IMG/VR virus record: IMGVR_UViG_3300006794_000002 | Strand: one strand, 5' to 3' | From: a virus | Lineage: Duplodnaviria; Heunggongvirae; Uroviricota; Caudoviricetes | Length of the DNA: 64,000 nucleotides | In this document: positions 22,111-61,338 of the stretch, piece by piece | Position numbering within the stretch: the stretch's first letter is position 1 | How the letters are laid out: the number at the start of each line of letters is the position of its first letter | Notes under the pieces: model-generated | Databases searched by the model: none | The model's input: the letters and a program-made list of their open reading frames with translations, nothing else | Told to the model about the DNA's origin: nothing | Made by a program: the position numbers and the translations under genes

Positions 22111-22331
22111 TATGCTGACCTTCTCTTCTTCTTACGCTTCCTATGCCATAGGTTAGTGCGGCGAGCCTTTAACATGGCTACCTTTGCCTTGCCGCGTAGA
22201 CTAAAGTTCACCGTCTTGTATCGACGCTTCGCCGCTGCCGACTTGATTAGGTCGCCCTGCGCCGTCTTCTTCTTGCGGTCTTGGATCAGACGCTTCCGCG
22301 ACTGTGTTGCTGCTTTGATCGCCATTAACAA
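22110..22331 (-). CDS. small highly basic (Lys/Arg-rich) protein
   Basis: 30 of 73 residues are K/R. Its stop overlaps the downstream start (TAATG). Its 5' part overlaps the glycosyltransferase C-terminus, so the start is uncertain. Confidence 0.3.
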   Translation of the reverse strand: MLMAIKAATQSRKRLIQDRKKKTAQGDLIKSAAAKRRYKTVNFSLRGKAKVAMLKARRTNLWHRKRKKKRRSA

Positions 22332-23502
22332 CTTCCTCGACCTTGTTGATAACCATGGTCCTGAAGTTTGACCACTGGTAGTCCTGAACGCGGCTTAGAC
22401 CAGCCTTAGACATTCGCTGAGCCTCGTTAGGGTTTCTTTTGATACGCAGGATAGCCTTCGCAATATCCTGTGGATCAACGTTGCCGTAGCGCGTAGACGA
22501 TTTGTGGACTTCCCAATCTATGATCGGAAGACCAACACCGGCTGGTGATGCTACCTCCCAACCGGCTGCGTATTTCGGAACAACTACCGGAACTCCGCAA
22601 GCCATCGCCTCAGCAGTTGGAAGACCAAAGCCTTCAACCTGAGAAGCGCTGACGAACAGATCGAGCGAATTGTAAATCTCTGCTAGGCCGGGATTCTTAG
22701 GCTCTCCCGTTAGTTCGGGAACGTTAGCGTTAAACTTGTGCATCAACGGGTTGAAGAACGTAATGTCCTGAACTCCGTACATTTCAGCAACCTCTGGAAG
22801 ATTCCAGCCGTCCAGCCAGTAGTGCTGGTAAGGTACCGTGTGCAGATACAGAACAATGTCCTTCTGCTTGTACTGGTGCTTTAGAATGCTCATCGCTTCG
22901 ATGATACGCGGAATCTGCTTGCGACGAACGTTGGTCGCAACGACTCCTACCACGAACTTGCCTTCCCACTTCATCTGCTTACGGACTGCATCGCGCATCC
23001 CGTTGTCTCGTGGAGCGGTGTTGAATACCTCGTGATCTACGCCGTGATAAACGTAGTCAACGTTCTTGCCTAGGTAACGCTTGACAACCTTGGTACCATA
23101 ATCAGTACAGGTAAAGAAGGGCAGGATGCCAAGCATCTTGCGCCAGTCTCTCTGCGCTATCGGCTCTCCCTCAATAGGTACGTATCCGAGAAAACGGTTC
23201 CCATCTGGTATAACGGAAGAGGCCGTGACGAAAGTGCCCGGATCGCACGTCGTATAAACGACATCCGGCCTGAAGTCTTCGATGACGCCGGGAGCGTCGT
23301 GGAAGCCCCAAACGTCGCCATTGTAGCCTGAGGGTGCATAAAAAGCCCCATAATCACTAGTTGGAGTGATGCTTCCGTCAGTTAGACCACCTAGGGAAGC
23401 AACCTCCCATCCTTTACTTTGAAACGCTAGGGCTGCTTCGGCGTTGACTCGTCCGAACCCCGTCTTTAGCATCGGGCTGTCGCCCACTATCAACACGCGC
23501 AT
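22201..23502 (-). CDS. glycosyltransferase, GT-B fold family 1/GT4
   Basis: N-terminus MRVLIVGDS… and the C-terminal GT1 signature VSASQVEGFGLPTAEAMACGVPVVV. Confidence 0.7.
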   Translation of the reverse strand: MRVLIVGDSPMLKTGFGRVNAEAALAFQSKGWEVASLGGLTDGSITPTSDYGAFYAPSGYNGDVWGFHDAPGVIEDFRPDVVYTTCDPGTFVTASSVIPDGNRFLGYVPIEGEPIAQRDWRKMLGILPFFTCTDYGTKVVKRYLGKNVDYVYHGVDHEVFNTAPRDNGMRDAVRKQMKWEGKFVVGVVATNVRRKQIPRIIEAMSILKHQYKQKDIVLYLHTVPYQHYWLDGWNLPEVAEMYGVQDITFFNPLMHKFNANVPELTGEPKNPGLAEIYNSLDLFVSASQVEGFGLPTAEAMACGVPVVVPKYAAGWEVASPAGVGLPIIDWEVHKSSTRYGNVDPQDIAKAILRIKRNPNEAQRMSKAGLSRVQDYQWSNFRTMVINKVEEVVNGDQSSNTVAEASDPRPQEEDGAGRPNQVGSGEASIQDGEL

Positions 23503-47592: not shown

Positions 47593-48882
47593 ATGAATTA
47601 CCTAGTCGATACGTTCGTCCCCGTTGATGCGAAAGAGGAAATTCAGTCTCGCTTCGACAAGATGGTGAAGCGTGCAATTCGAATCGGATTTCCTACGCCA
47701 TCGATTAAATGGGGCCAGATTCAACTTGGCAACCTTCAGGGGCCATTTGCTGAGGATGCTGAGGGCATCATTCAGGATGCTGGTACGACGAACGTTCTTC
47801 AGTGGCAGAAACTTCAGATCACTGGCGAACCGCTGAAGTTGGGCGACTGGACGCTCGTGGCGTCGATTGATCCGCTGACCATAGAAAATGATGAGGTCGC
47901 ATATTTCCGGCCCGTACCGGGCGCTACAGTGCCTCAGGAGTGGCGTCAGACCGATCCACGCAAGTGCGATCACTGCAAGGCGCTTCGATATCGCACCGAG
48001 ACGTTCCTAATCACTGACGGTACCGAATTCAAACAGGTTGGCCGTCAATGCATTCGGGACTTCTTGGGCCACAGTCCTGATGTCATTGCGAATTACATTC
48101 GCTTCATCATGGAAATGTATGGCTGGTTCAATTCACAGGACGAAGGCGGCTGGCTAGGATTCAAAGAAGCGACCCGCTGGCTACCTGATAGCGTCATTCG
48201 TGTCACTGCTCGTGTCGTGGCCTTCGATGGCTTCTTTGTCAGCCGCAAGAAAGAACGTGAAGCGCACGACGAAGGAAATTTCTCTGTCGTTGCCACTGCG
48301 TCAACTGTTCTGGACATTTTGAATCCGCCATCAAATCAGTACGGAAAGGAACTGATTCAGAAGTACGCTGCTGCAAATCAGGAGCGGGTCGATCATCTTT
48401 ATGAATTGACCAAGACCGAATTGAACAAGTTGCAGATGTACGACGACAACGACTGGAAGGCCAACCTGTACGTTGCGTCCCATGCAAATACAATCGGCTT
48501 CAAGCAGATCGGTGTTCTCGTTAGCGGAATTCTCTTGGGAATTCGCAAGGACGAGCAGATGATTAAAGAGCGCGAAGACTACCTTCGCAACAAGGCTGAA
48601 GGAAAGCCTGAATCTAATTACGTTGGCAGCGTCGGTGAGCGTGTCACTGTTGAAGTGACAATCATGGATGTGAAGGAAATAAATGCTGACGGTGCCTACT
48701 TCGCAACATCGTATCTGGTTTCGATGATTGACAGCGCTGGAAATACACTGAAGTGGTTCGCTTCAAATCCACCGGCTGCGGTTGAGAAGGATGCAAAGTT
48801 GACACTGGTGGGTACAGTTAAGAAGCACGACGAGTGGAAGGGCCAGAAGCAAACGCTCCTGACCCGCTGCAAGGTGAAGTAG
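47593..48882 (+). CDS. hypothetical protein (429 aa)
   Basis: Long ORF preceded by an AAGGAG RBS. Confidence 0.45.
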   Translation: MNYLVDTFVPVDAKEEIQSRFDKMVKRAIRIGFPTPSIKWGQIQLGNLQGPFAEDAEGIIQDAGTTNVLQWQKLQITGEPLKLGDWTLVASIDPLTIENDEVAYFRPVPGATVPQEWRQTDPRKCDHCKALRYRTETFLITDGTEFKQVGRQCIRDFLGHSPDVIANYIRFIMEMYGWFNSQDEGGWLGFKEATRWLPDSVIRVTARVVAFDGFFVSRKKEREAHDEGNFSVVATASTVLDILNPPSNQYGKELIQKYAAANQERVDHLYELTKTELNKLQMYDDNDWKANLYVASHANTIGFKQIGVLVSGILLGIRKDEQMIKEREDYLRNKAEGKPESNYVGSVGERVTVEVTIMDVKEINADGAYFATSYLVSMIDSAGNTLKWFASNPPAAVEKDAKLTLVGTVKKHDEWKGQKQTLLTRCKVK

Positions 48883-49632: not shown

Positions 49633-50574
49633 GTGGAAATCCTGATGCCTGACACGAAGAAGTCGGTCTACCAAATCGTCACCGATAAGATCATCGCGCT
49701 ACTGGATGCTGGTACGGTGCCGTGGCGCAAGCCGTGGCGCTCAACAGGTCTGGTCATGCCGGTGTCATCTCGTGGCTATCGATATCGGGGGATCAACGTC
49801 TTCATTCTCGCTGCCACTTCGATGGCTAATGGCTATCGTTCACCAGTCTGGTTGACATTCAAGCAGATCAACGAACTTGGTGGCAAGGTAAACGAGGGCG
49901 AAAAGTCAACGCTCGTTACCTACTGGAAACTTCTGGAAATTGAAGAGCGTGATGCAAATACAAACGAGTTGAAGAAGAAGAAGATTCCGCTACTGCGATT
50001 CTATCTCGTCTTCAATCTCGACCAGACAACTGGCGTTAAGTTGTCGAAGGCCGTTCAGAAAATTCAAGACGCTGCCACCGACGAAGGCACCTACAAGGGT
50101 GGCGTTCGTGAGGAAGACGCTATTGAAGCGGCTGAAGCAATCGTCAAGGGCTACGAGAATGGGCCGCTTGTTCGATTTGGTTCCAACCGCGCAGCCTACA
50201 GTCCAACACTCGACGTTATCGGAATGCCGGACAAGACCGACTTCGATAAGATCGAGGAATTCTACGCCACTGAATTTCACGAGTTCGGTCATAGCACCGG
50301 CCACTCTTCTCGTTTGAATCGTGCTGGCATCACGTCGTTCGACCACTTCGGGTCAGGCCAGTACGCTGACGAGGAACTGATCGCTGAATTGACAGCCGCT
50401 ATGCTCTGCGCTGAAGCAGGGATCGACAACACAATCGAGAACAGCGCGGCTTACATCGCTTCGTGGAAGGCGAAGTTGACAGCCGACCCTAAACTGATCG
50501 TACAGGCCGCTGGCAAGGCACAGAAGGCCGTTGACTACATCACTGGCAAGCAATTTGAAGGAGTAGATGCGTGA
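49633..50574 (+). CDS. ArdC-like antirestriction protein (ssDNA-binding N-domain + zincin metalloprotease-like C-domain)
   Basis: N-terminal ArdC hallmark …GTVPWRKPW…. HEFGHSTGH (HExxH) motif in the C-terminal half. Confidence 0.55.
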   Translation: MEILMPDTKKSVYQIVTDKIIALLDAGTVPWRKPWRSTGLVMPVSSRGYRYRGINVFILAATSMANGYRSPVWLTFKQINELGGKVNEGEKSTLVTYWKLLEIEERDANTNELKKKKIPLLRFYLVFNLDQTTGVKLSKAVQKIQDAATDEGTYKGGVREEDAIEAAEAIVKGYENGPLVRFGSNRAAYSPTLDVIGMPDKTDFDKIEEFYATEFHEFGHSTGHSSRLNRAGITSFDHFGSGQYADEELIAELTAAMLCAEAGIDNTIENSAAYIASWKAKLTADPKLIVQAAGKAQKAVDYITGKQFEGVDA

Positions 50575-51586: not shown

Positions 51587-51973
51587 TTGCCTAGAGTTGA
51601 GGGCATGGCCCGTTACGGGCGACCAACATATATCAACGTTGAATCATACGGTCGGACTCGGACGGATAGACTTCGGATCGAGGTCTACGAGAATGATGAT
51701 TCGACCGGCAACTACGGTAGCACAGACATCACGCCAGAAAGCGCGATGACTCTGGCTGTTGAACTTCATCGTCTAGCAACTACCGCCTTCCGTCAGCGCC
51801 GCGAGCAGGAAGAGCGTGAGCGATTGCGGGCTGAGCAAGACGCTCAGCGTAGCCTTCAAATTACCAACGCACAGATCAACAGCACCAGAACGAGAGGAAG
51901 CAGCGATGCCTACTGGCAATCGGTACTCAGTGATGAGGACTACCGACGCATCTTCAGCGTCACCAACAGTTAG
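51587..51973 (+). CDS. hypothetical protein
   Basis: 128-aa ORF. Overlaps the listed start of the next long ORF. Confidence 0.35.
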   Translation: MPRVEGMARYGRPTYINVESYGRTRTDRLRIEVYENDDSTGNYGSTDITPESAMTLAVELHRLATTAFRQRREQEERERLRAEQDAQRSLQITNAQINSTRTRGSSDAYWQSVLSDEDYRRIFSVTNS

Positions 51974-53066
51974 AATTCAGCGCTGCGATACTGCGGGCTG
52001 CTCGATCTGCGGGCCGAACGCTGAGGTTCCGTGGTACAATCCGCTGCCTAACCGTCGTGGTTCAGGCGATGCGCTGCGTCGTATCCGCGCTCGCTTTACA
52101 CGGCGAGAGCGTGAGTTCGAACAGGCCAATCGTGACGAGAACGACGAGACGCATGATAAGCCGACGAACTGCTATTGCGAGGCGTGCAAGTTGGCTCGCT
52201 TCGAAGGTTCGAAGTTGCGTCATGCTGTCATCGAAGGCTACAGTTACGAGCCGCCCGGTGGATACAAGTATCATTCGGTTCCGGATGATCCGTTCAACTA
52301 CTACTTGGGCGTTGAATTGGAGACTGATGCTAACGGTCCTCTGTCTGCTGAGGTAGGCGCTGACATTCGCCAGCCGAAGCAGTTCTGGATCGCCAAGCAT
52401 GACGGCTCTGTGTCTGGTCCGGAGTTTGCTTCTCATCCGGCAACGTTGTCGTGGTGGCGTAAGCACGCTGCTGATTTGGAAGTGATGTTCACCACGCTGC
52501 TGCATGGTGGCTTCTCGTCTCACAACGGGAATCACTGCGGTATGCACGTCAACATCAGCCGTAATGCGTTCGACAACAGCCGCCATTTCTATCGCTTCCT
52601 GAACCTGATTCATGGTCAGCCGAAGTGGTCAATCAAGATGTCTCAGCGAACGCAGTCAACTGCTACGCAGTGGGCTGTAGTTGGTGCCGACAAGCGGACG
52701 CTGAAGCGCATCTCAGTCGGAGACGAGACGGACAAGTACGTTGCACTGAACGTGCCGTACAGCGAGCGTCGTATCCGGCGTGCTGGCTACTATGATCGCA
52801 ACGACAACTGGATTGCCGATCAGTACGAACCTGAAGAGCGTGATCCGTCACGCCTTCGCTACGAGTTCCGGCTTCCCCGTGGTACGCTGCGTATCGACCG
52901 CTTCTTCAAGAACTTGGAGTGGACTGTTGCGATGATCGAGTACACTCGTACTCATACTCGCGTGTCTGATGCCACTCCTGCTAAGTTCATGAAGTGGGTG
53001 GCTGACAACGAGAAGAAGTACCCGTATCTTGCGGGCTTCATCTCTGAGAAATTCGGGGTGAGTTAA
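51906..53066 (+). CDS. amidoligase (COOH-NH2 ligase, glutamine-synthetase-like fold; PF12224-type)
   Basis: Motifs YYLGVELETDANG…WIAKHDGSVSGPEFASHP…GMHVNISRNAF match phage amidoligase family signatures. The start is set to an internal Met because the listed 51816 start overlaps the previous gene. Confidence 0.5.
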   Translation: MPTGNRYSVMRTTDASSASPTVRIQRCDTAGCSICGPNAEVPWYNPLPNRRGSGDALRRIRARFTRREREFEQANRDENDETHDKPTNCYCEACKLARFEGSKLRHAVIEGYSYEPPGGYKYHSVPDDPFNYYLGVELETDANGPLSAEVGADIRQPKQFWIAKHDGSVSGPEFASHPATLSWWRKHAADLEVMFTTLLHGGFSSHNGNHCGMHVNISRNAFDNSRHFYRFLNLIHGQPKWSIKMSQRTQSTATQWAVVGADKRTLKRISVGDETDKYVALNVPYSERRIRRAGYYDRNDNWIADQYEPEERDPSRLRYEFRLPRGTLRIDRFFKNLEWTVAMIEYTRTHTRVSDATPAKFMKWVADNEKKYPYLAGFISEKFGVS

Positions 53067-53318
53067 GTGCCACGCATTACTAGGGCTGCACGAGATGGCA
53101 ACGGCCAAGCGGTCGAGGCTTACATATCCGCTTGGCGTCCCAACGATTGGGCCGACTCAGGTGGCCGAGAGGATACAGCGGTAACGCTGGAACTGTACTC
53201 TAACGAGGCATCCTCAGGCCGCAGCCTTAACCATGTTCTTTACATCAAGCGCGACGAGGCATTGCTGCTCGCTCGTGCTATCCACGACTCAGCAATTTAC
53301 TACAGGAGTGATGAATAA
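53067..53318 (+). CDS. hypothetical protein (83 aa) between the amidoligase and the amidotransferase
   Basis: Tightly coupled ORF (GTG/ATG start straight after the upstream stop). Confidence 0.3.
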   Translation: MPRITRAARDGNGQAVEAYISAWRPNDWADSGGREDTAVTLELYSNEASSGRSLNHVLYIKRDEALLLARAIHDSAIYYRSDE

Positions 53319-54347
53319 ATGTGTTTGATTGTACACCGGCCAACGGCTGGTGCCCATCTTCCGAACGCCATCATCGACAGTAACCTGTCGTACAATGATG
53401 ACGGCTTCGGACTTGCTTGGCGAGAGGGCGGACGACTGCGCTACCGCAAGTTCGGTCCCGCCGATCATCAGGCATTCAAGGCGTTCTTGAAGAAGATCGA
53501 CCAGACCGATAACGAGTACATGGCGCACTTCCGGATGACGACTCACGGGCCGTCGAACAAGGACATGGCGCATCCGTATCTTTACTCTGATGAAGAGTTC
53601 GGTGATGTTCTCGTCTTCCATAACGGCATCATCCCGATCAGCACTCCATCCGACAAGAGCGACACGCTGGTGTTTGTCGAGAGCGTGCTTTCGCAACTGC
53701 CATCGAAATGGTGGGAGCAGCCAGCGCTGAAATATCTGGTCGAGTCGGGCATCGGTTATTCACGGCTTGGCATCATGACGGGCGAAGAGTCGATCCGTAT
53801 CACGGGCGACAACAAGTGGGTCTTCCAGAACGGCATCTACTACAGCACTACGCCGATGCGGTCTACTACCACGAGTTGGCAGTACAATGGCGGCTGGAAC
53901 GATGAGGACTGGTACAAGACGTATCAGAGTAACTCCGCCCCAAAAGCGAGCAGCGCCGCGTCCGGCGCATCAAGCGAAAAGAACAACGACAAGCAAATCG
54001 GCTTCTCCAAGCCCACCGCAGGACAGGGCACCGTTGGTAAGTCTTGGATTCATGTAGGCCACACTGTTGAACCTACGGATGAGCCTGAGATTGTCGAAGG
54101 TGAAGCCTACGGTGAGGCATGGTGCCGCAACTGCGACACGTTGGGCGAGTACTACATCATTGACAACAAGGTGTACGTTGAACTGTCGCACAAGGTCGAG
54201 AAGGATGACGACGAGGAATATGCTCAGAGTCTAACGCATTGCATGGACTGTGGGCTATTCTTTCCTTCAGCCGAGGAACACACTTGCGACCCAAAAGTGT
54301 TTCTCCTGCCAGAGACAGCATCATCGTCAGTAGCGTCAAAGGCGTAA
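53319..54347 (+). CDS. class II (Ntn-type) glutamine amidotransferase-like protein
   Basis: Starts MCLIVHR…, so Cys2 would be the nucleophile after Met removal. …DDGFGLAW…HFRMTTHG… pattern. Cys-rich C-terminal tail (CRNCD…CMDCG…C). Confidence 0.5.
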   Translation: MCLIVHRPTAGAHLPNAIIDSNLSYNDDGFGLAWREGGRLRYRKFGPADHQAFKAFLKKIDQTDNEYMAHFRMTTHGPSNKDMAHPYLYSDEEFGDVLVFHNGIIPISTPSDKSDTLVFVESVLSQLPSKWWEQPALKYLVESGIGYSRLGIMTGEESIRITGDNKWVFQNGIYYSTTPMRSTTTSWQYNGGWNDEDWYKTYQSNSAPKASSAASGASSEKNNDKQIGFSKPTAGQGTVGKSWIHVGHTVEPTDEPEIVEGEAYGEAWCRNCDTLGEYYIIDNKVYVELSHKVEKDDDEEYAQSLTHCMDCGLFFPSAEEHTCDPKVFLLPETASSSVASKA

Positions 54348-54460: not shown

Positions 54461-54787
54461 ATGGCTGGATTTAGGTGGGGAAGGGTAACTCAATACCGAC
54501 CCTACGCTAGACCGCCTAAGACGGTTAAGCAACGGTTACTTGCGAACTGCACAGATGAAGACAGGGGCTACGATAGTCCCTGTCTAATCTGGAATGGCGA
54601 GAAGGACCGTAATGGATACGGTAGAATCAAGCGTGATGGGCGCAGGGTGATGGCACACTGGATTCTCGTAGGCGACCCGCCTGAGGGAATGGAAGTTGAC
54701 CATCTCTGCAAGCAGCGTGATTGCGTGCGGCCCGACCATCTGGAATTCGTTACACGTCAGGAGAATCTAAGGAGACGAGATGAGTAA
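54461..54787 (+). CDS. HNH endonuclease
   Basis: CLIWNGEKDRNGYGRI…VDHLCKQRDCVRPDHLEFVTRQEN shows an HNH motif with zinc ligands. Confidence 0.6.
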   Translation: MAGFRWGRVTQYRPYARPPKTVKQRLLANCTDEDRGYDSPCLIWNGEKDRNGYGRIKRDGRRVMAHWILVGDPPEGMEVDHLCKQRDCVRPDHLEFVTRQENLRRRDE

Positions 54788-57191: not shown

Positions 57192-57497
57192 ATGGGCGCT
57201 GATCTTTATTTGCTAGAGCGCGAACTTCGTGCGAGCGGCAAGATGATTGATCCTGACGACTTCGGACATGACGTGAACGTTGCCGAGTACAGCATTCACG
57301 AATGGTTGAAGTCCGATCAGGCTCAGGAGTTCTTCAGCGACTATCTTGGCTGGTACGACGGATACGACAACTGGCACGAGAACTTCGACGGCGAAGGCCA
57401 CAACATGTATCAAGTCAGCGCCGAGAATATGCTGGCGGCAGTGGCTAAGAAATACAAGGAAGCGTCAGAGACGCTGAAGGGTAGAAAGAAGAAGTAA
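57192..57497 (+). CDS. hypothetical protein
   Basis: 101-aa ORF. Confidence 0.35.
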
Positions 57498-58297
57498 TGA
57501 TTTCAGTATTCGTCAACTCGCAGAACAGCGAAGCGACGAAGCGCAACTACCAGTACGACCTAGATACGTGGTTTCGATATCTCAACGGAGTCCAACCCGA
57601 CGAGAGCAGCGCCATCCAGTACCGAAACTGGCTGGAACTAAACTACGCTCCCTCTAGCGCGGCTCGTATGTTCAACACCGTGAGACAATACTATCGCTTC
57701 ATGGGCGGCGCAAATCCTTTGGAGAGAATCAAGTCCCCAAAGACCGTGAAAAATCGGGTGCCAAAAGTCCCTAGCGATAAGGTTGTCGAGGCGATGTTGC
57801 GGCTTTGCCGTGACCCGCGAGACACAGTTGTTCTGGCGTTGCTACTGAATGGCCTACGGAGTGAAGAGGTTACGCGACTGACGGCTAACGACTGGCAGTA
57901 CGAGCCTCTTTACTCCGCATGGGTAATCAGCGTCATTGGGAAGGGCAACAAGGCCCGTAGAGTCCCTGCAACGGCTGAAACTGTTCAAGCAGTCTCCGGA
58001 TACCTATCTAGGAGAAATCAGTCGTCTGCGTGGCTTGTACAGGCCCGTGGGGGCAATCGAATGTCCACCCGACAGGTCCAGTACGTTTGTGAGAAGTATT
58101 CGGGCGGCAAAATCCGCCCTCACGCCCTTAGGCACCACTATGCTACCCGCTTGGTACGGGCTGGCGTAAACCTAATTGCGGTGCGTGATCTGCTAGGTCA
58201 CGAGGATGTACAGACCACACAGATTTACACTTCCCTTGACTTGGCCGGTATAATTGAAGCAGCAAGGGCAGACCCAAGAAACGAGGTTGGTAAGTGA
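57497..58297 (+). CDS. int: tyrosine recombinase / integrase (XerD-like)
   Basis: C-terminal catalytic signature [39 protein letters not shown] (R…HxxR…Y). The N-terminal SAM-like core-binding region is present. Confidence 0.7.
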
Positions 58298-60414: not shown

Positions 60415-61338
60415 TTGTTAGGATTGATTTTCCTAGTCGTCGGTGTTGTTCTCATCATCGGCGCATTTGTCCCCGCGTGGATTTCTAGCGAGCGGGCGAC
60501 TGGTCCCTCTGCTAAGTCCGTTGGCGGTGGCTGTCTTCTGGCGATTGTAGGCGCACTCGTGATCCTGTTTGGCTTGGGCTTCGCTGAAGTTCCTGCCGGT
60601 CAGGTCGGTGTGGTCACGTCGTTCGGCCAGATTCACAACGAAACACTTGGTCCGGGCCTTCACTGGTTCCCGCCATTCCTGAATAACGTCACCCTGATGG
60701 ATGGTCGTGTTCAGGTCTATGAATTCAAGGATATCTCCGGTGCGTCAAGCGACCTTCAGGAAGTTACCCTGACAGGCATCGTGAACTTCCACCTTGATGC
60801 TGCGAAGGCGTCTGAGATTTATCAGACAGTCGGCGTGGACTACAAGGAGAAGGTCTTCACCCGTCCTGCTGATACGATCCTGAAGAGCATTACGCCTAAG
60901 TTCAAGGCGCAGGATATCGTCGGCCAGCGTGTCACAATCGGCGCTCAAACCGCTGAGGCACTACAGGCTGCGGTCCTTCGTTATGGCATCGTGGTTGACA
61001 GCGTTAACATCTCCAACATTGGCTTGTCGGCTGACTTCCTACAGGCAATCGAGGACAAGGTTAAGGCTGAGCAGGAAGCACAGCGTCAGGAGACGCTCAT
61101 TCGTGTGTCTGAGGCTGAGGCTAAGCAGCGTATTGCTAAGGCAAACGGTGAGGCTGAGGCTACCCGCATCGCGGCGCAGGGCCAAGCGGATGCTAACGCG
61201 CTTTTGAATAGCAGTCTTACCCCTGAACTGATTCAGTGGTCGAGCATTCAGAAGTTGAATCCGAATGTTCAGGTCATCTATCTTCCAAGCACCGGCTCGT
61301 TCATCCTGCCGTTGCCATCGACTGGTGGAGGTCAGTAA
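60415..61338 (+). CDS. SPFH/band-7 (stomatin/prohibitin/HflKC-like) membrane protein
   Basis: N-terminal TM helix, then EVPAGQVGVVTSFGQI…GLHWFPPF… (SPFH core) and a long Ala/Glu/Gln-rich coiled coil. Confidence 0.6.
   Translation: MLGLIFLVVGVVLIIGAFVPAWISSERATGPSAKSVGGGCLLAIVGALVILFGLGFAEVPAGQVGVVTSFGQIHNETLGPGLHWFPPFLNNVTLMDGRVQVYEFKDISGASSDLQEVTLTGIVNFHLDAAKASEIYQTVGVDYKEKVFTRPADTILKSITPKFKAQDIVGQRVTIGAQTAEALQAAVLRYGIVVDSVNISNIGLSADFLQAIEDKVKAEQEAQRQETLIRVSEAEAKQRIAKANGEAEATRIAAQGQADANALLNSSLTPELIQWSSIQKLNPNVQVIYLPSTGSFILPLPSTGGGQ

What the first reader, a model, noticed from the sequence alone, without database searches (positions are those of the whole stretch)
51587..54347. Amidoligase + class-II glutamine amidotransferase gene pair (a predicted peptide/metabolite-modifying system)
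The 51.8–53.1 kb ORF carries motifs of the glutamine-synthetase-like 'amidoligase' family found sporadically in phages (ELETDANG…KHDGSVSGPEFASHP…GMHVNISRN). Two genes downstream lies an Ntn-hydrolase-type amidotransferase-like protein that would have Cys as its N-terminal nucleophile (MCLIVHR…). It also has a Cys-rich C-terminal tail.

Such pairs have been predicted to ligate amino groups onto carboxylates of peptides, proteins or small molecules. Their phage function is unknown.
Basis: partly seen in the sequence, partly recalled or inferred. Interest (0 to 1): 0.6.

Follow-up and report, generated by a model that had tools for sequence, protein, structure and literature searches.

The report
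Phage amidoligase plus glutamine-amidotransferase-like gene pair
This phage carries a divergent copy of a two-gene enzyme module already catalogued in many phages: an ATP-dependent amide-bond ligase followed by a cysteine amidohydrolase that resembles a glutamine amidotransferase.

Summary
The observation and the interpretation both hold.

**Amidoligase.** The gene at 51906-53066 (386 aa; the true start is not 51816) encodes a glutamine-synthetase-fold amidoligase.
- The protein itself misses Pfam.
- 27 of 42 homologues hit Amidoligase_2.

**GATase-like gene.** The gene at 53319-54347 encodes an Ntn class-II glutamine-amidotransferase-like domain.
- It keeps Cys2 and the equivalents of GlmS Arg73, Thr76, Asn98-Gly99 and Asp123.
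- Its family profile matches GlmS (E = 5e-5), and Foldseek gives 2e-6.
- It also carries a small conserved His-Cys-Cys-His domain.

**Linkage.** In about 25 independent related contigs the GATase-like gene always follows the amidoligase. No third gene is conserved.

**Two small ORFs.** ORFs 51587-51973 and 53067-53318 are confined to this lineage.

**Prior knowledge.** The module was predicted by Iyer et al. (2009) and is annotated in LUZ24-like, Marvin-like and OM43 phages. I found no experiment.

**Likely mechanism.** The most likely mechanism is ligation and cleavage of a gamma-glutamyl-type amide. A related phage fuses the GATase-like domain to a gamma-glutamylamine cyclotransferase, which supports this. 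The substrate is unknown.

**Verdict.** This is a new, divergent member of a known kind, of moderate-to-low interest.

The parts
51587..51973 (+). ORF A, a 128-aa small protein with a TTG start. It is lineage-specific, of unknown role, and overlaps the amidoligase start by 68 nt.
   Evidence: A GGGAG Shine-Dalgarno sequence lies upstream. An orthologue sits in the same position in the closest relative, L006/L018 (45% identity over 115 aa, E = 3.7e-27). It is absent from all other related loci. It has no Pfam, PHROG or NCBIfam hit. The gene caller did not call it on the source contig.
51906..53066 (+). GS-fold ATP-dependent carboxylate-amine ligase, a divergent subfamily of Amidoligase_2 (386 aa).
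52170..52190 (+). CxCxxCK motif (C89, C91, C94, K95) ahead of the catalytic domain. C27, C32 and C35 lie further upstream. Possibly a metal-binding module.
   Evidence: The motif is nearly invariant (>= 90%) across 42 homologues. More distant members carry several CxxC pairs in the same N-terminal region. Metal binding is inferred, not tested.
52308..52892 (+). Catalytic core motifs of the ligase: GVELETD (E137, E139), KHDGSVSGPEF (D166, S168, G171, E173), GMHVNIS (H214), QR (R248) and YEFRLPRG (R318, E320, R322, R325).
   Evidence: The residues are invariant across 42 homologues. Most are also invariant in an alignment with Marvin gp105 and with the canonical PF12224 member of phage C75C1.
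53067..53318 (+). ORF C, an 83-aa small protein with a GTG start, inserted between the two enzyme genes. It is lineage-specific and of unknown role.
   Evidence: It has zero-base junctions on both sides. The only orthologue is in L006/L018 (44% identity, E = 6e-15). A search of 5.8 billion proteins found only itself. Its similarity to ORF A is weak (BLASTP E = 0.012; hhalign probability 8.7%).
53319..53867 (+). N-terminal Ntn class-II glutamine-amidotransferase-like domain (residues 1-183), with Cys2 as the nucleophile after Met removal.
   Evidence: Invariant residues: C2, D28, G29, G31, H70, R72, T75, G77, H85, P86, H101, N102, G103, D115. The family profile matches the GlmS glutaminase domain 1xff (E = 4.9e-5), with HFRxATHG...HNGII...SDT aligned to AHTRWATHG...HNGII...TDT. 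NCBIfam glmS scores E = 1.6e-5. Model pLDDT is above 90 in this region. Foldseek matches 1xff (E = 1.9e-6), PurF, EgtC and 1te5.
54045..54194 (+). Conserved small beta-rich C-terminal domain with a His-Cys-Cys-His tetrad (H248, C269, C272, H291). Probably zinc-binding.
   Evidence: pLDDT is 83-88 and six strands are predicted. H, C, C, H plus G and Y are invariant in 9 diverse sequences. The domain occurs in only 25 of 1.84 billion representative clusters, almost always at the C-terminus of proteins of about 260-390 aa. Zinc binding is inferred.
54240..54287 (+). Window-specific extra Cys/His insertion, HCMDCG...HTC, in a low-confidence tail.
   Evidence: It is absent even from the 63%-identical closest relative P0122 (alignment). 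pLDDT is below 50.

Best explanation
**Shown.** Four tightly packed, co-directional early genes sit at 51587-54347. The evolutionarily conserved core is two of them:
1. A glutamine-synthetase/glutamate-cysteine-ligase-fold amidoligase. It retains the full invariant acidic/His/Arg motif set of its family.
2. An Ntn (Cys1) class-II glutamine-amidotransferase-like enzyme. It retains the nucleophile, the oxyanion-hole Asn-Gly, and the Arg and Asp that hold the alpha-carboxylate and alpha-amino group of glutamine in GlmS. A small His-Cys-Cys-His domain is attached.

**Inferred.** The two enzymes work on the same gamma-glutamyl-type amide bond.
- The ligase uses ATP to form an acyl-phosphate on a glutamate gamma-carboxyl and couples it to an amine. 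The amine is not identified; candidates include a polyamine, a cell-wall precursor or another metabolite.
- The Ntn enzyme binds the resulting glutamine-like gamma-glutamyl head group through its free alpha-amino and alpha-carboxylate groups. It then cleaves or transfers it through a Cys thioester.

This is a make-and-release (or writer/eraser) logic. It resembles EgtA/EgtC in ergothioneine synthesis and GmaS/N-methylglutamate synthase.

The two small ORFs A and C are lineage-specific add-ons, not core parts.
For: **Family and fold**
- establish the ligase.
- establish the Ntn enzyme.

**Linkage**
- The GATase-like gene follows the amidoligase on the same strand in all 11 loci.
- The same holds in 22 of 22 informative metagenome loci.
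- Only these two genes are conserved across loci.
- The junctions are tight and there is no internal promoter or terminator signal.

**Gamma-glutamyl chemistry**
- The Arg72, Thr75, Asn102-Gly103 and Asp115 equivalents of the GlmS glutamine pocket are invariant. The bound group should therefore carry a free alpha-amino acid head.
- Phage C75C1 has a canonical Amidoligase_2 (E = 3.5e-30). It lies a few genes upstream of a protein whose N-terminal half is homologous to this GATase-like domain. The C-terminal half of that protein is a GGACT gamma-glutamylamine cyclotransferase (E = 2.7e-21).
- EgtC, a gamma-glutamyl-conjugate hydrolase, is among the structural matches.
- From established knowledge: every characterised GS-fold ligase activates a glutamate gamma-carboxyl, and no GS-fold ligase is known to receive channelled ammonia from a GATase subunit.
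Against: - No substrate or activity was tested. The mechanism rests on family analogy.
- The same conserved glutamine pocket would equally serve plain glutamine hydrolysis to supply ammonia.
- I could not model the complex, so an ammonia tunnel is not excluded.
- A fusion of GAT-II with GGACT puts two gamma-glutamyl-cleaving domains in one protein, and the simple ligase/eraser scheme does not fully explain that.
- The window's own proteins fall below the curated Pfam thresholds.
Confidence: 0.5

Rival explanations
1. The pair is a true two-subunit glutamine-dependent amidotransferase. The Ntn protein hydrolyses free glutamine. The ammonia is channelled to the amidoligase, which uses ATP to turn a carboxylate into a carboxamide. 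The target could be D-isoglutamate or diaminopimelate of a peptidoglycan precursor, by analogy with MurT/GatD or LtsA. This would alter the cell wall and block superinfection.
For: - The catalytic and glutamine-binding residues of genuine class-II amidotransferases are intact.
- Gene adjacency is strict, as expected for subunits.
- Two homologues of the amidoligase carry CBM_5_12 carbohydrate-binding modules. This would fit a glycan or cell-wall-related substrate.
- Later papers attribute a cell-wall-modification and superinfection-exclusion role to Iyer et al. 2009.
Against: - From established knowledge, no GS-fold ligase is known to take channelled ammonia.
- The GGACT fusion in a related phage has no role in a pure amidation scheme.
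- The CBM fusions are rare: 2 of the 120 homologues listed.
- The source phage shows no other cell-wall-modifying genes next to the pair.
Confidence: 0.27
2. The pair belongs to a phage DNA base hypermodification pathway. It would add or trim an amino-acid-derived group on hydroxymethyl-pyrimidines to evade restriction.
For: - Lee et al. 2021 (PMC8989533) report Pfam amidoligase and glutamine-amidotransferase genes co-located with 5-HMUDK/aGPT-Pplase thymidine hypermodification genes in viral contigs.
- The pair lies in an early region that also holds an ArdC-type anti-restriction gene.
- Both proteins carry Cys/His modules that could bind nucleic acid.
Against: - No 5-HMU DNA kinase, aGPT-Pplase, dUMP hydroxymethylase or TET/JBP gene was seen in the window or in the precomputed Pfam of the source contig region. 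The phage has an ordinary ThyX and a thymidine kinase.
- No such gene is conserved next to the pair in relatives.
- About 14.5 kb of the 78.5-kb contig lies outside the window and was not examined.
Confidence: 0.06
3. The pair is an auxiliary metabolic gene pair that boosts host nitrogen, glutamine or glutathione metabolism during infection, as proposed for Phage-ZRK32. Alternatively it is a Pup-like protein-tagging system that uses the small neighbouring ORFs as tags.
For: - The eLife 2024 paper interprets amidoligase, GATase, GGCT and glutathione synthase phage genes as nitrogen-metabolism genes.
- ORF C ends in Asp-Glu.
Against: - Pattern-based scanning found no relative of this subfamily in 185,579 species genomes. 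That argues against a borrowed host metabolic gene.
- The nitrogen claim in that paper rests on annotation only.
- The small ORFs occur only in the window lineage.
- The C-terminus of ORF C is not conserved in its one orthologue.
- The invariant Arg/Asp pocket implies a free alpha-amino acid head, not a protein-embedded residue.
Confidence: 0.07

Closest known systems
Phage Amidoligase_2 (PF12224) + class-II GATase-like gene neighbourhoods. They were predicted by Iyer, Abhiman, Burroughs & Aravind 2009 (Mol Biosyst 5:1636) and are annotated in LUZ24-like Pseudomonas phages (UFV-P2, tf), mycobacteriophage Marvin (gp105/gp106) and OM43 phages MEP401/402.
   Same: - The same two domain families appear in the same order and on the same strand, in the early region of tailed phages.
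- An HNH homing endonuclease lies beside the pair, as in UFV-P2.
- The function is equally untested.
   Different: - The sequences are very divergent: 27% identity to Marvin gp105. The window proteins fall below Pfam thresholds and match only 'unknown function' PHROGs.
- There is no COOH-NH2 ligase, ATP-grasp or GGCT companion of the kind found in LUZ24-like cassettes.
- The GATase-like protein is short and carries a subfamily-specific His-Cys-Cys-His domain.
Phage C75C1-type module: a canonical Amidoligase_2 plus a GAT-II::GGACT fusion protein.
   Same: The ligase family is homologous, and the N-terminal Ntn domain is homologous (tblastn E = 5e-9 over residues 1-176).
   Different: The C-terminal partner domain is a gamma-glutamylamine cyclotransferase rather than the His-Cys-Cys-His domain. 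Several small genes separate the two enzymes.
EgtA/EgtC of ergothioneine biosynthesis, and GmaS/N-methylglutamate synthase. In both, a GS-fold gamma-glutamyl ligase is paired with a class-II GATase-fold enzyme that acts on the gamma-glutamyl conjugate.
   Same: The two folds are combined in the same way. EgtC (4zfj) and GmaS (9qur) are among the structural matches. The glutamine-type head-group pocket is conserved.
   Different: There is no detectable sequence-level membership. The surrounding pathway genes, such as EgtB/D or the MgsB/C subunits, are absent. The setting is a phage rather than a cell. The functional parallel comes from established knowledge and is not tested here.
PafA/Dop pupylation system.
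   Different: - The opposing enzyme here is an Ntn Cys hydrolase, not a second GS-fold protein.
- There is no Pup-like tag with a conserved C-terminal Gly-Gly-Gln/Glu.
- There is no proteasome context.

Membership tests
Pfam PF12224 Amidoligase_2 (GS-like amidoligase) | The protein itself matches the family HMM above the curated cutoff. | tested here: not met
   There is no PF12224 hit at E <= 1 for the 416-aa or the 386-aa form. It matches only PHROGs 16683 and 22302, both of unknown function.
Pfam PF12224 Amidoligase_2 (GS-like amidoligase) | Homology to bona fide members, by transitive or profile evidence. | tested here: met
   27 of 42 aligned homologues hit PF12224, best E = 3.3e-7. Precomputed PF12224 hits appear on several homologues. 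The motifs align with the C75C1 amidoligase, which hits PF12224 at E = 3.5e-30.
Pfam PF12224 Amidoligase_2 (GS-like amidoligase) | Glutamine synthetase / glutamate-cysteine ligase catalytic fold. | tested here: met
Pfam PF12224 Amidoligase_2 (GS-like amidoligase) | Conserved acidic/His/Arg residues that would bind metal and ATP: ExE, DxSxxGxE, GxH, ExR. | tested here: met
   E137, E139, D166, S168, G171, E173, H214, R248, E320 and R322 are invariant, including in distant canonical members. Their roles are inferred by analogy with GS.
Pfam PF12224 Amidoligase_2 (GS-like amidoligase) | ATP-dependent carboxylate-amine ligation activity. | not testable with these tools
   This needs enzymology.
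Pfam PF12224 Amidoligase_2 (GS-like amidoligase) | Conserved neighbourhood with a GAT-II-like thiol hydrolase or an AIG2/GGCT protein. | tested here: met
   A GATase-like gene lies downstream in every informative related locus, and in Marvin and C75C1.
Class-II (Ntn) glutamine amidotransferase superfamily | Cys directly after the initiator Met. | tested here: met
   The gene begins ATG TGT at 53319. C2 is invariant in 17 sequences.
Class-II (Ntn) glutamine amidotransferase superfamily | The protein itself matches the family HMM above the curated cutoff. | tested here: not met
   GATase_4 scores E = 0.015 and 14.7 bits against a cutoff of 23. The NCBIfam glmS N-terminal match is E = 1.6e-5, far below the equivalog cutoff. 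The homologue L010 passes GATase_4 with 26.7 bits.
Class-II (Ntn) glutamine amidotransferase superfamily | Ntn four-layer fold similar to known glutaminase domains. | tested here: met
   pLDDT exceeds 90 over residues 1-180. Foldseek matches the GlmS glutaminase domain (E = 1.9e-6), PurF, EgtC and 1te5.
Class-II (Ntn) glutamine amidotransferase superfamily | Oxyanion-hole Asn-Gly, and the Arg/Thr/Asp that bind the glutamine alpha-groups. | tested here: met
   R72, T75, N102-G103 and D115 are invariant. They align with AHTRWATHG, HNGII and TDT of GlmS/GFAT.
Class-II (Ntn) glutamine amidotransferase superfamily | Coupling to a synthase domain through an ammonia channel, which would make it a true amidotransferase rather than a hydrolase. 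| not tested
This feature separates the best explanation from its main rival.
Thymidine hypermodification gene clusters (5-HMUDK / aGPT-Pplase) | Presence of a 5-HMU DNA kinase, an aGPT-Pplase, or a dUMP hydroxymethylase / TET-JBP near the pair. | tested here: not met
   None was found in the window ORFs scanned, in the precomputed Pfam of the source contig, or in the conserved neighbours. Not every small ORF was scanned.
Pupylation-like protein tagging | A small tag protein with a conserved C-terminal Gln/Glu next to the ligase. | tested here: not met
   ORF C ends in ...RSDE, but its only orthologue ends in ...NGESI. ORFs A and C are absent from all other loci.

The most novel reading that the evidence does not exclude
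This subfamily may be a phage-encoded reversible gamma-glutamylation system, with a writer and an eraser/transferase. The zinc-type modules would target the enzymes to a specific host macromolecule or to polyamines. These modules are the CxCxxC region on the ligase, the His-Cys-Cys-His domain on the Ntn enzyme, and a separate Cys-rich protein inserted between the genes in some relatives. The system would act as an early counter-defence or host-takeover function and not as a metabolic gene.
Probability: 0.15. Interest if true: 0.7.

Novelty: new member of a known kind. Interest (0 to 1): 0.3.

Why it matters
Amidoligase plus GATase-like or GGCT modules are among the most widespread phage enzyme pairs that still lack an experimentally known function. 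They occur in Pseudomonas, Mycobacterium, marine OM43, crAss-like and jumbo phages.

This window adds a compact two-gene version from a divergent subfamily that standard Pfam and PHROG annotation misses.

Its invariant glutamine-type pocket, together with the GGACT fusion in a relative, narrows the chemistry to gamma-glutamyl amides. That makes a focused substrate screen feasible.

The finding does not change the existing picture.

Tried and rejected
- **Direct family scans.** Pfam, NCBIfam and PHROG scans of the window proteins gave nothing or sub-threshold hits. I had to work through homologues and structure instead.
- **Amidoligase profile against PDB sequences.** No hits, even at E <= 10.
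- **Megablast of the region against 50,697 phage records.** No match.
- **Pattern scan of 185,579 species genomes.** No relative was found, so there is no host clue.
- **ORF C homologue search.** It found only itself.
- **ORF A/ORF C paralogy.** It is suggested by a shared (I/L)E(V/L)Y-N...G...A..LA..(L/I)H..A pattern. Support is too weak to claim it (E = 0.012; hhalign probability 8.7%).
- **ORF A/C as Pup-like tags.** Rejected, because they are lineage-restricted and the C-terminus is not conserved.
- **DNA hypermodification.** Considered because of Lee et al. 2021, but no companion genes were found.
- **The GATase C-terminal domain.** A search on its own showed it is essentially confined to this protein family. 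It has no Pfam match.
- **Cys-rich proteins between the two genes in L010, L036, L038 and L043.** They have no significant Pfam match.
- **Iyer et al. 2009 (PMC3268129).** The paper is not in the library. Its predictions are cited second-hand from papers that quote it.
- **Literature searches.** Five searches found no experimental characterisation.
Full report
**What is in the sequence**

Between 51587 and 54347 there are four co-directional ORFs on the + strand.
- **ORF A**, 51587-51973, 128 aa. It has a TTG start preceded by GGGAG.
- **ORF B.** The ORF listing reports 51816-53066. The database copy P0001 is 386 aa and 100% identical. The gene call on the source contig starts at the position equivalent to ATG 51906. 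That ATG has a GAGG 8 nt upstream. I therefore take 51906-53066 as the gene.
- **ORF C**, 53067-53318, 83 aa, GTG start.
- **ORF D**, 53319-54347, 342 aa. It begins ATG TGT.

The B/C and C/D junctions have no intergenic bases. No promoter-like or terminator-like excess lies inside the block.

**Source of the window**

The window comes from a 78.5-kb metagenomic contig, ENA ERZ28573795 scaffold_37. It is a tailed phage:
- Terminase, portal, major capsid and tail genes lie on the minus strand.
- It also carries a ribonucleotide reductase, ThyX, thymidine kinase, a TROVE/Ro60-like protein and 33 tRNA genes.
- A plus-strand block of small early genes holds an ArdC-type anti-restriction gene, the four ORFs, an HNH endonuclease and a tyrosine recombinase.

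**ORF B is a glutamine-synthetase-fold amidoligase**

Direct scans fail. There is no Pfam or NCBIfam hit, and only two PHROGs of unknown function match. Deeper evidence is clear:
- The protein has 181 homologues.
- In an alignment of 42 of them, 27 hit PF12224 Amidoligase_2 individually.
- The AlphaFold model built on that alignment has mean pLDDT 83.4, and above 90 across the catalytic core.
- Against predicted viral structures, 48 proteins match at E <= 1e-3. Most are named 'Amidoligase enzyme' and come from many phage groups.
- The invariant residues E137, E139, D166, S168, G171, E173, H214, R248, E320 and R322 are shared with Marvin gp105 and with the canonical PF12224 protein of phage C75C1. 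This is the pattern expected for the metal- and ATP-binding strands of the GS fold. The residue roles are inferred.
- Ahead of the catalytic domain lies a nearly invariant CxCxxCK motif. More distant members carry multiple CxxC pairs there.

**ORF D is a class-II (Ntn) glutamine-amidotransferase-like enzyme with an extra domain**

- Pfam GATase_4 is sub-threshold (E = 0.015). NCBIfam glmS matches the N-terminal part (E = 1.6e-5).
- A profile of 17 family members matches the GlmS glutaminase domain (E = 4.9e-5) and PurF. The motifs align in register: HFRxATHG with AHTRWATHG, HNGII with HNGII, and SDT with TDT.
- The model is very confident over residues 1-180. Foldseek matches the GlmS glutaminase domain (E = 1.9e-6), PurF, the ergothioneine Ntn hydrolase EgtC and the YafJ-like 1te5.
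- Cys2, Arg72, Thr75, Asn102-Gly103 and Asp115 are invariant. In GlmS, by established knowledge, the equivalents are the nucleophile, the oxyanion hole, and the residues that hold the alpha-carboxylate and alpha-amino group of glutamine.
- After a disordered linker comes a six-stranded domain (residues about 243-292, pLDDT 83-88). Its His248, Cys269, Cys272 and His291 are invariant.
- An exhaustive HMMER search of 1.84 billion representatives found this domain in only 25 clusters, almost always at the C-terminus of proteins of this size.
- The further CMDC...HTC stretch is an insertion specific to the window's phage.

**The pair is a conserved two-gene module**

- In 11 related loci from viral contigs and encoding contigs, the GATase-like gene follows the amidoligase on the same strand.
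- Of 27 metagenome loci, the 22 whose contig continues past the amidoligase all show the same arrangement. The other five end at or inside the amidoligase. Allowing for duplicates, that is about 25 independent loci.
- All-against-all clustering of neighbouring ORFs shows that only these two families are shared by all loci. The other large clusters are antisense shadows of the same two genes.
- ORFs A and C have orthologues only in the closest relative, L006/L018. ORF C has no other relative among 5.8 billion proteins.
- A resemblance between ORFs A and C is not statistically secure.
- In four more distant loci a different, Cys-rich gene occupies the position between the two enzymes.

**Comparison with what is known**

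The module is not new as a kind.
- Papers on LUZ24-like Pseudomonas phages list Amidoligase_2 (PF12224), an HNH endonuclease and a class-II glutamine amidotransferase in a row. A COOH-NH2 ligase and an ATP-grasp enzyme lie nearby.
- OM43 phages MEP401/402 and more than 30 related viral genomes carry both genes.
- Mycobacteriophage Marvin has gp105 (an amidoligase, annotated as a GATase-domain protein) followed by gp106 (a GATase).
- These papers trace the functional ideas to Iyer et al. 2009: cell-wall modification to prevent superinfection, or synthesis of secondary metabolites. I could not read that paper directly.
- Lee et al. 2021 note amidoligase and amidotransferase genes beside thymidine-hypermodification genes in some viral contigs.
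- One paper interprets such genes as nitrogen-metabolism AMGs, on annotation alone.
- Five literature searches found no biochemical or genetic characterisation.

**How it most likely works**

Three lines of evidence point to gamma-glutamyl amide chemistry.
1. By established knowledge, all characterised GS-fold ligases activate a glutamate gamma-carboxyl as an acyl-phosphate. This holds for GS, GCL, PuuA, GmaS, and PafA acting on the C-terminal Glu of Pup. The structural neighbours found here are exactly these enzymes.
2. The Ntn partner keeps the pocket that recognises a free alpha-amino acid head group. It should therefore bind glutamine or a gamma-glutamyl-X compound, not an ordinary peptide bond or a protein-embedded side chain.
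3. In phage C75C1 the homologous Ntn domain is fused to a GGACT gamma-glutamylamine cyclotransferase and sits near a canonical amidoligase.

Precedents that pair a GS-fold ligase with a class-II GATase-fold enzyme acting on the gamma-glutamyl product are EgtA/EgtC and GmaS/N-methylglutamate synthase. These come from established knowledge, and EgtC and GmaS appear among the fold matches.

I therefore favour this reading, at about 0.5. The ligase makes a gamma-glutamyl amide of an unidentified amine. The Ntn enzyme then cleaves or transfers it.

The main rival, at about 0.27, is a genuine glutamine-dependent amidotransferase that amidates a carboxylate such as a peptidoglycan-precursor carboxylate.
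- It uses the same conserved residues.
- It is favoured by the strict adjacency and by rare CBM_5_12 fusions.
- It has no precedent for the GS fold, and it does not explain the GGACT fusion.

DNA hypermodification is unlikely here, because no kinase, aGPT-Pplase or hydroxymethylase companion was found. Metabolic-AMG and Pup-like readings are also weak.

**Verdict**

This is a divergent member of an already catalogued phage module whose function remains experimentally unknown. Three features go beyond the standard description, and all three are modest increments:
- standard annotation misses it;
- it is the bare two-gene form;
- the ligase carries a Cys cluster and the Ntn enzyme carries a His-Cys-Cys-His domain.

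Interest is 0.3.

Noticed in passing
window 30313-34453 (- strand): A dense array of 33 tRNA genes (ARAGORN; 25 reach the Rfam gathering score). It covers almost all amino acids and sits between the structural module and the nucleotide-metabolism genes.
   Followed up: partly
window 38609-40213 (- strand): A 534-aa protein with a TROVE domain (Ro60-like RNA-binding protein; PHROG 850). It lies next to the ribonucleotide reductase and a few kb from the tRNA array. No Y-RNA-like family reached the Rfam gathering score.
   Followed up: partly
window 22201-23502 (- strand): A GT4-family glycosyltransferase gene, which also matches the 'GT4-conflict' Pfam family. It is embedded in the virion structural module, downstream of the capsid gene.
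   Followed up: no
window 54461-54787 (+ strand): An HNH_3 homing-type endonuclease lies immediately downstream of the GATase-like gene. The closest relative L006 has the same arrangement. In Pseudomonas phage UFV-P2 an HNH_3 gene sits between the amidoligase and the GATase.
   Followed up: partly
window 49633-50574 (+ strand): An ArdC-N plus zincin-like metallopeptidase (MPTase-PolyVal) anti-restriction protein (PHROG 7245, E = 1e-80) lies 1.3 kb upstream of the module.
   Followed up: no
window 47593-48882 (+ strand); L005 8564-9748; L007 9028-10206: A 429-aa protein of unknown function (PHROG 2319) lies 3 kb upstream of the pair here. It has homologues within about 1.5 kb downstream of the GATase-like gene in two related phage contigs.
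   Followed up: no
L010 7377-7904; L036 1184-1993; L038 1069-2022; L043 595-1386: In four more distant loci, a Cys-rich protein is inserted between the amidoligase and the GATase-like gene. It shares the N-terminal motif (I/V)AY(T/A)YDA(D/G)THCPxC ... D(S/R)EGN ... C..CG..(I/M).EH. It has no significant Pfam match.
   Followed up: partly
window 51587-51973 and 53067-53318: The two lineage-specific small ORFs that flank the amidoligase both begin MPR(V/I). They share a loose (I/L)E(V/L)Y-N...G...A..LA..(L/I)H..A pattern. They may be paralogues, but the statistics are weak (E = 0.012; hhalign probability 8.7%).
   Followed up: yes
window 57497-58297 and 60415-61338 (+ strand): A tyrosine recombinase (Phage_integrase) and a Band_7/SPFH-family protein lie among the small early genes. 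A related 77.7-kb phage contig (L004) also has the recombinase at a similar distance downstream of the pair.
   Followed up: no
L016 3282-4643 (Mycobacterium phage Marvin gp105): GenBank annotates gp105 as a 'glutamine amidotransferase domain protein'. It is in fact the amidoligase partner (weak PF12224 hit, 27% identity to the window ligase). The true GATase-like protein is gp106.
   Followed up: yes
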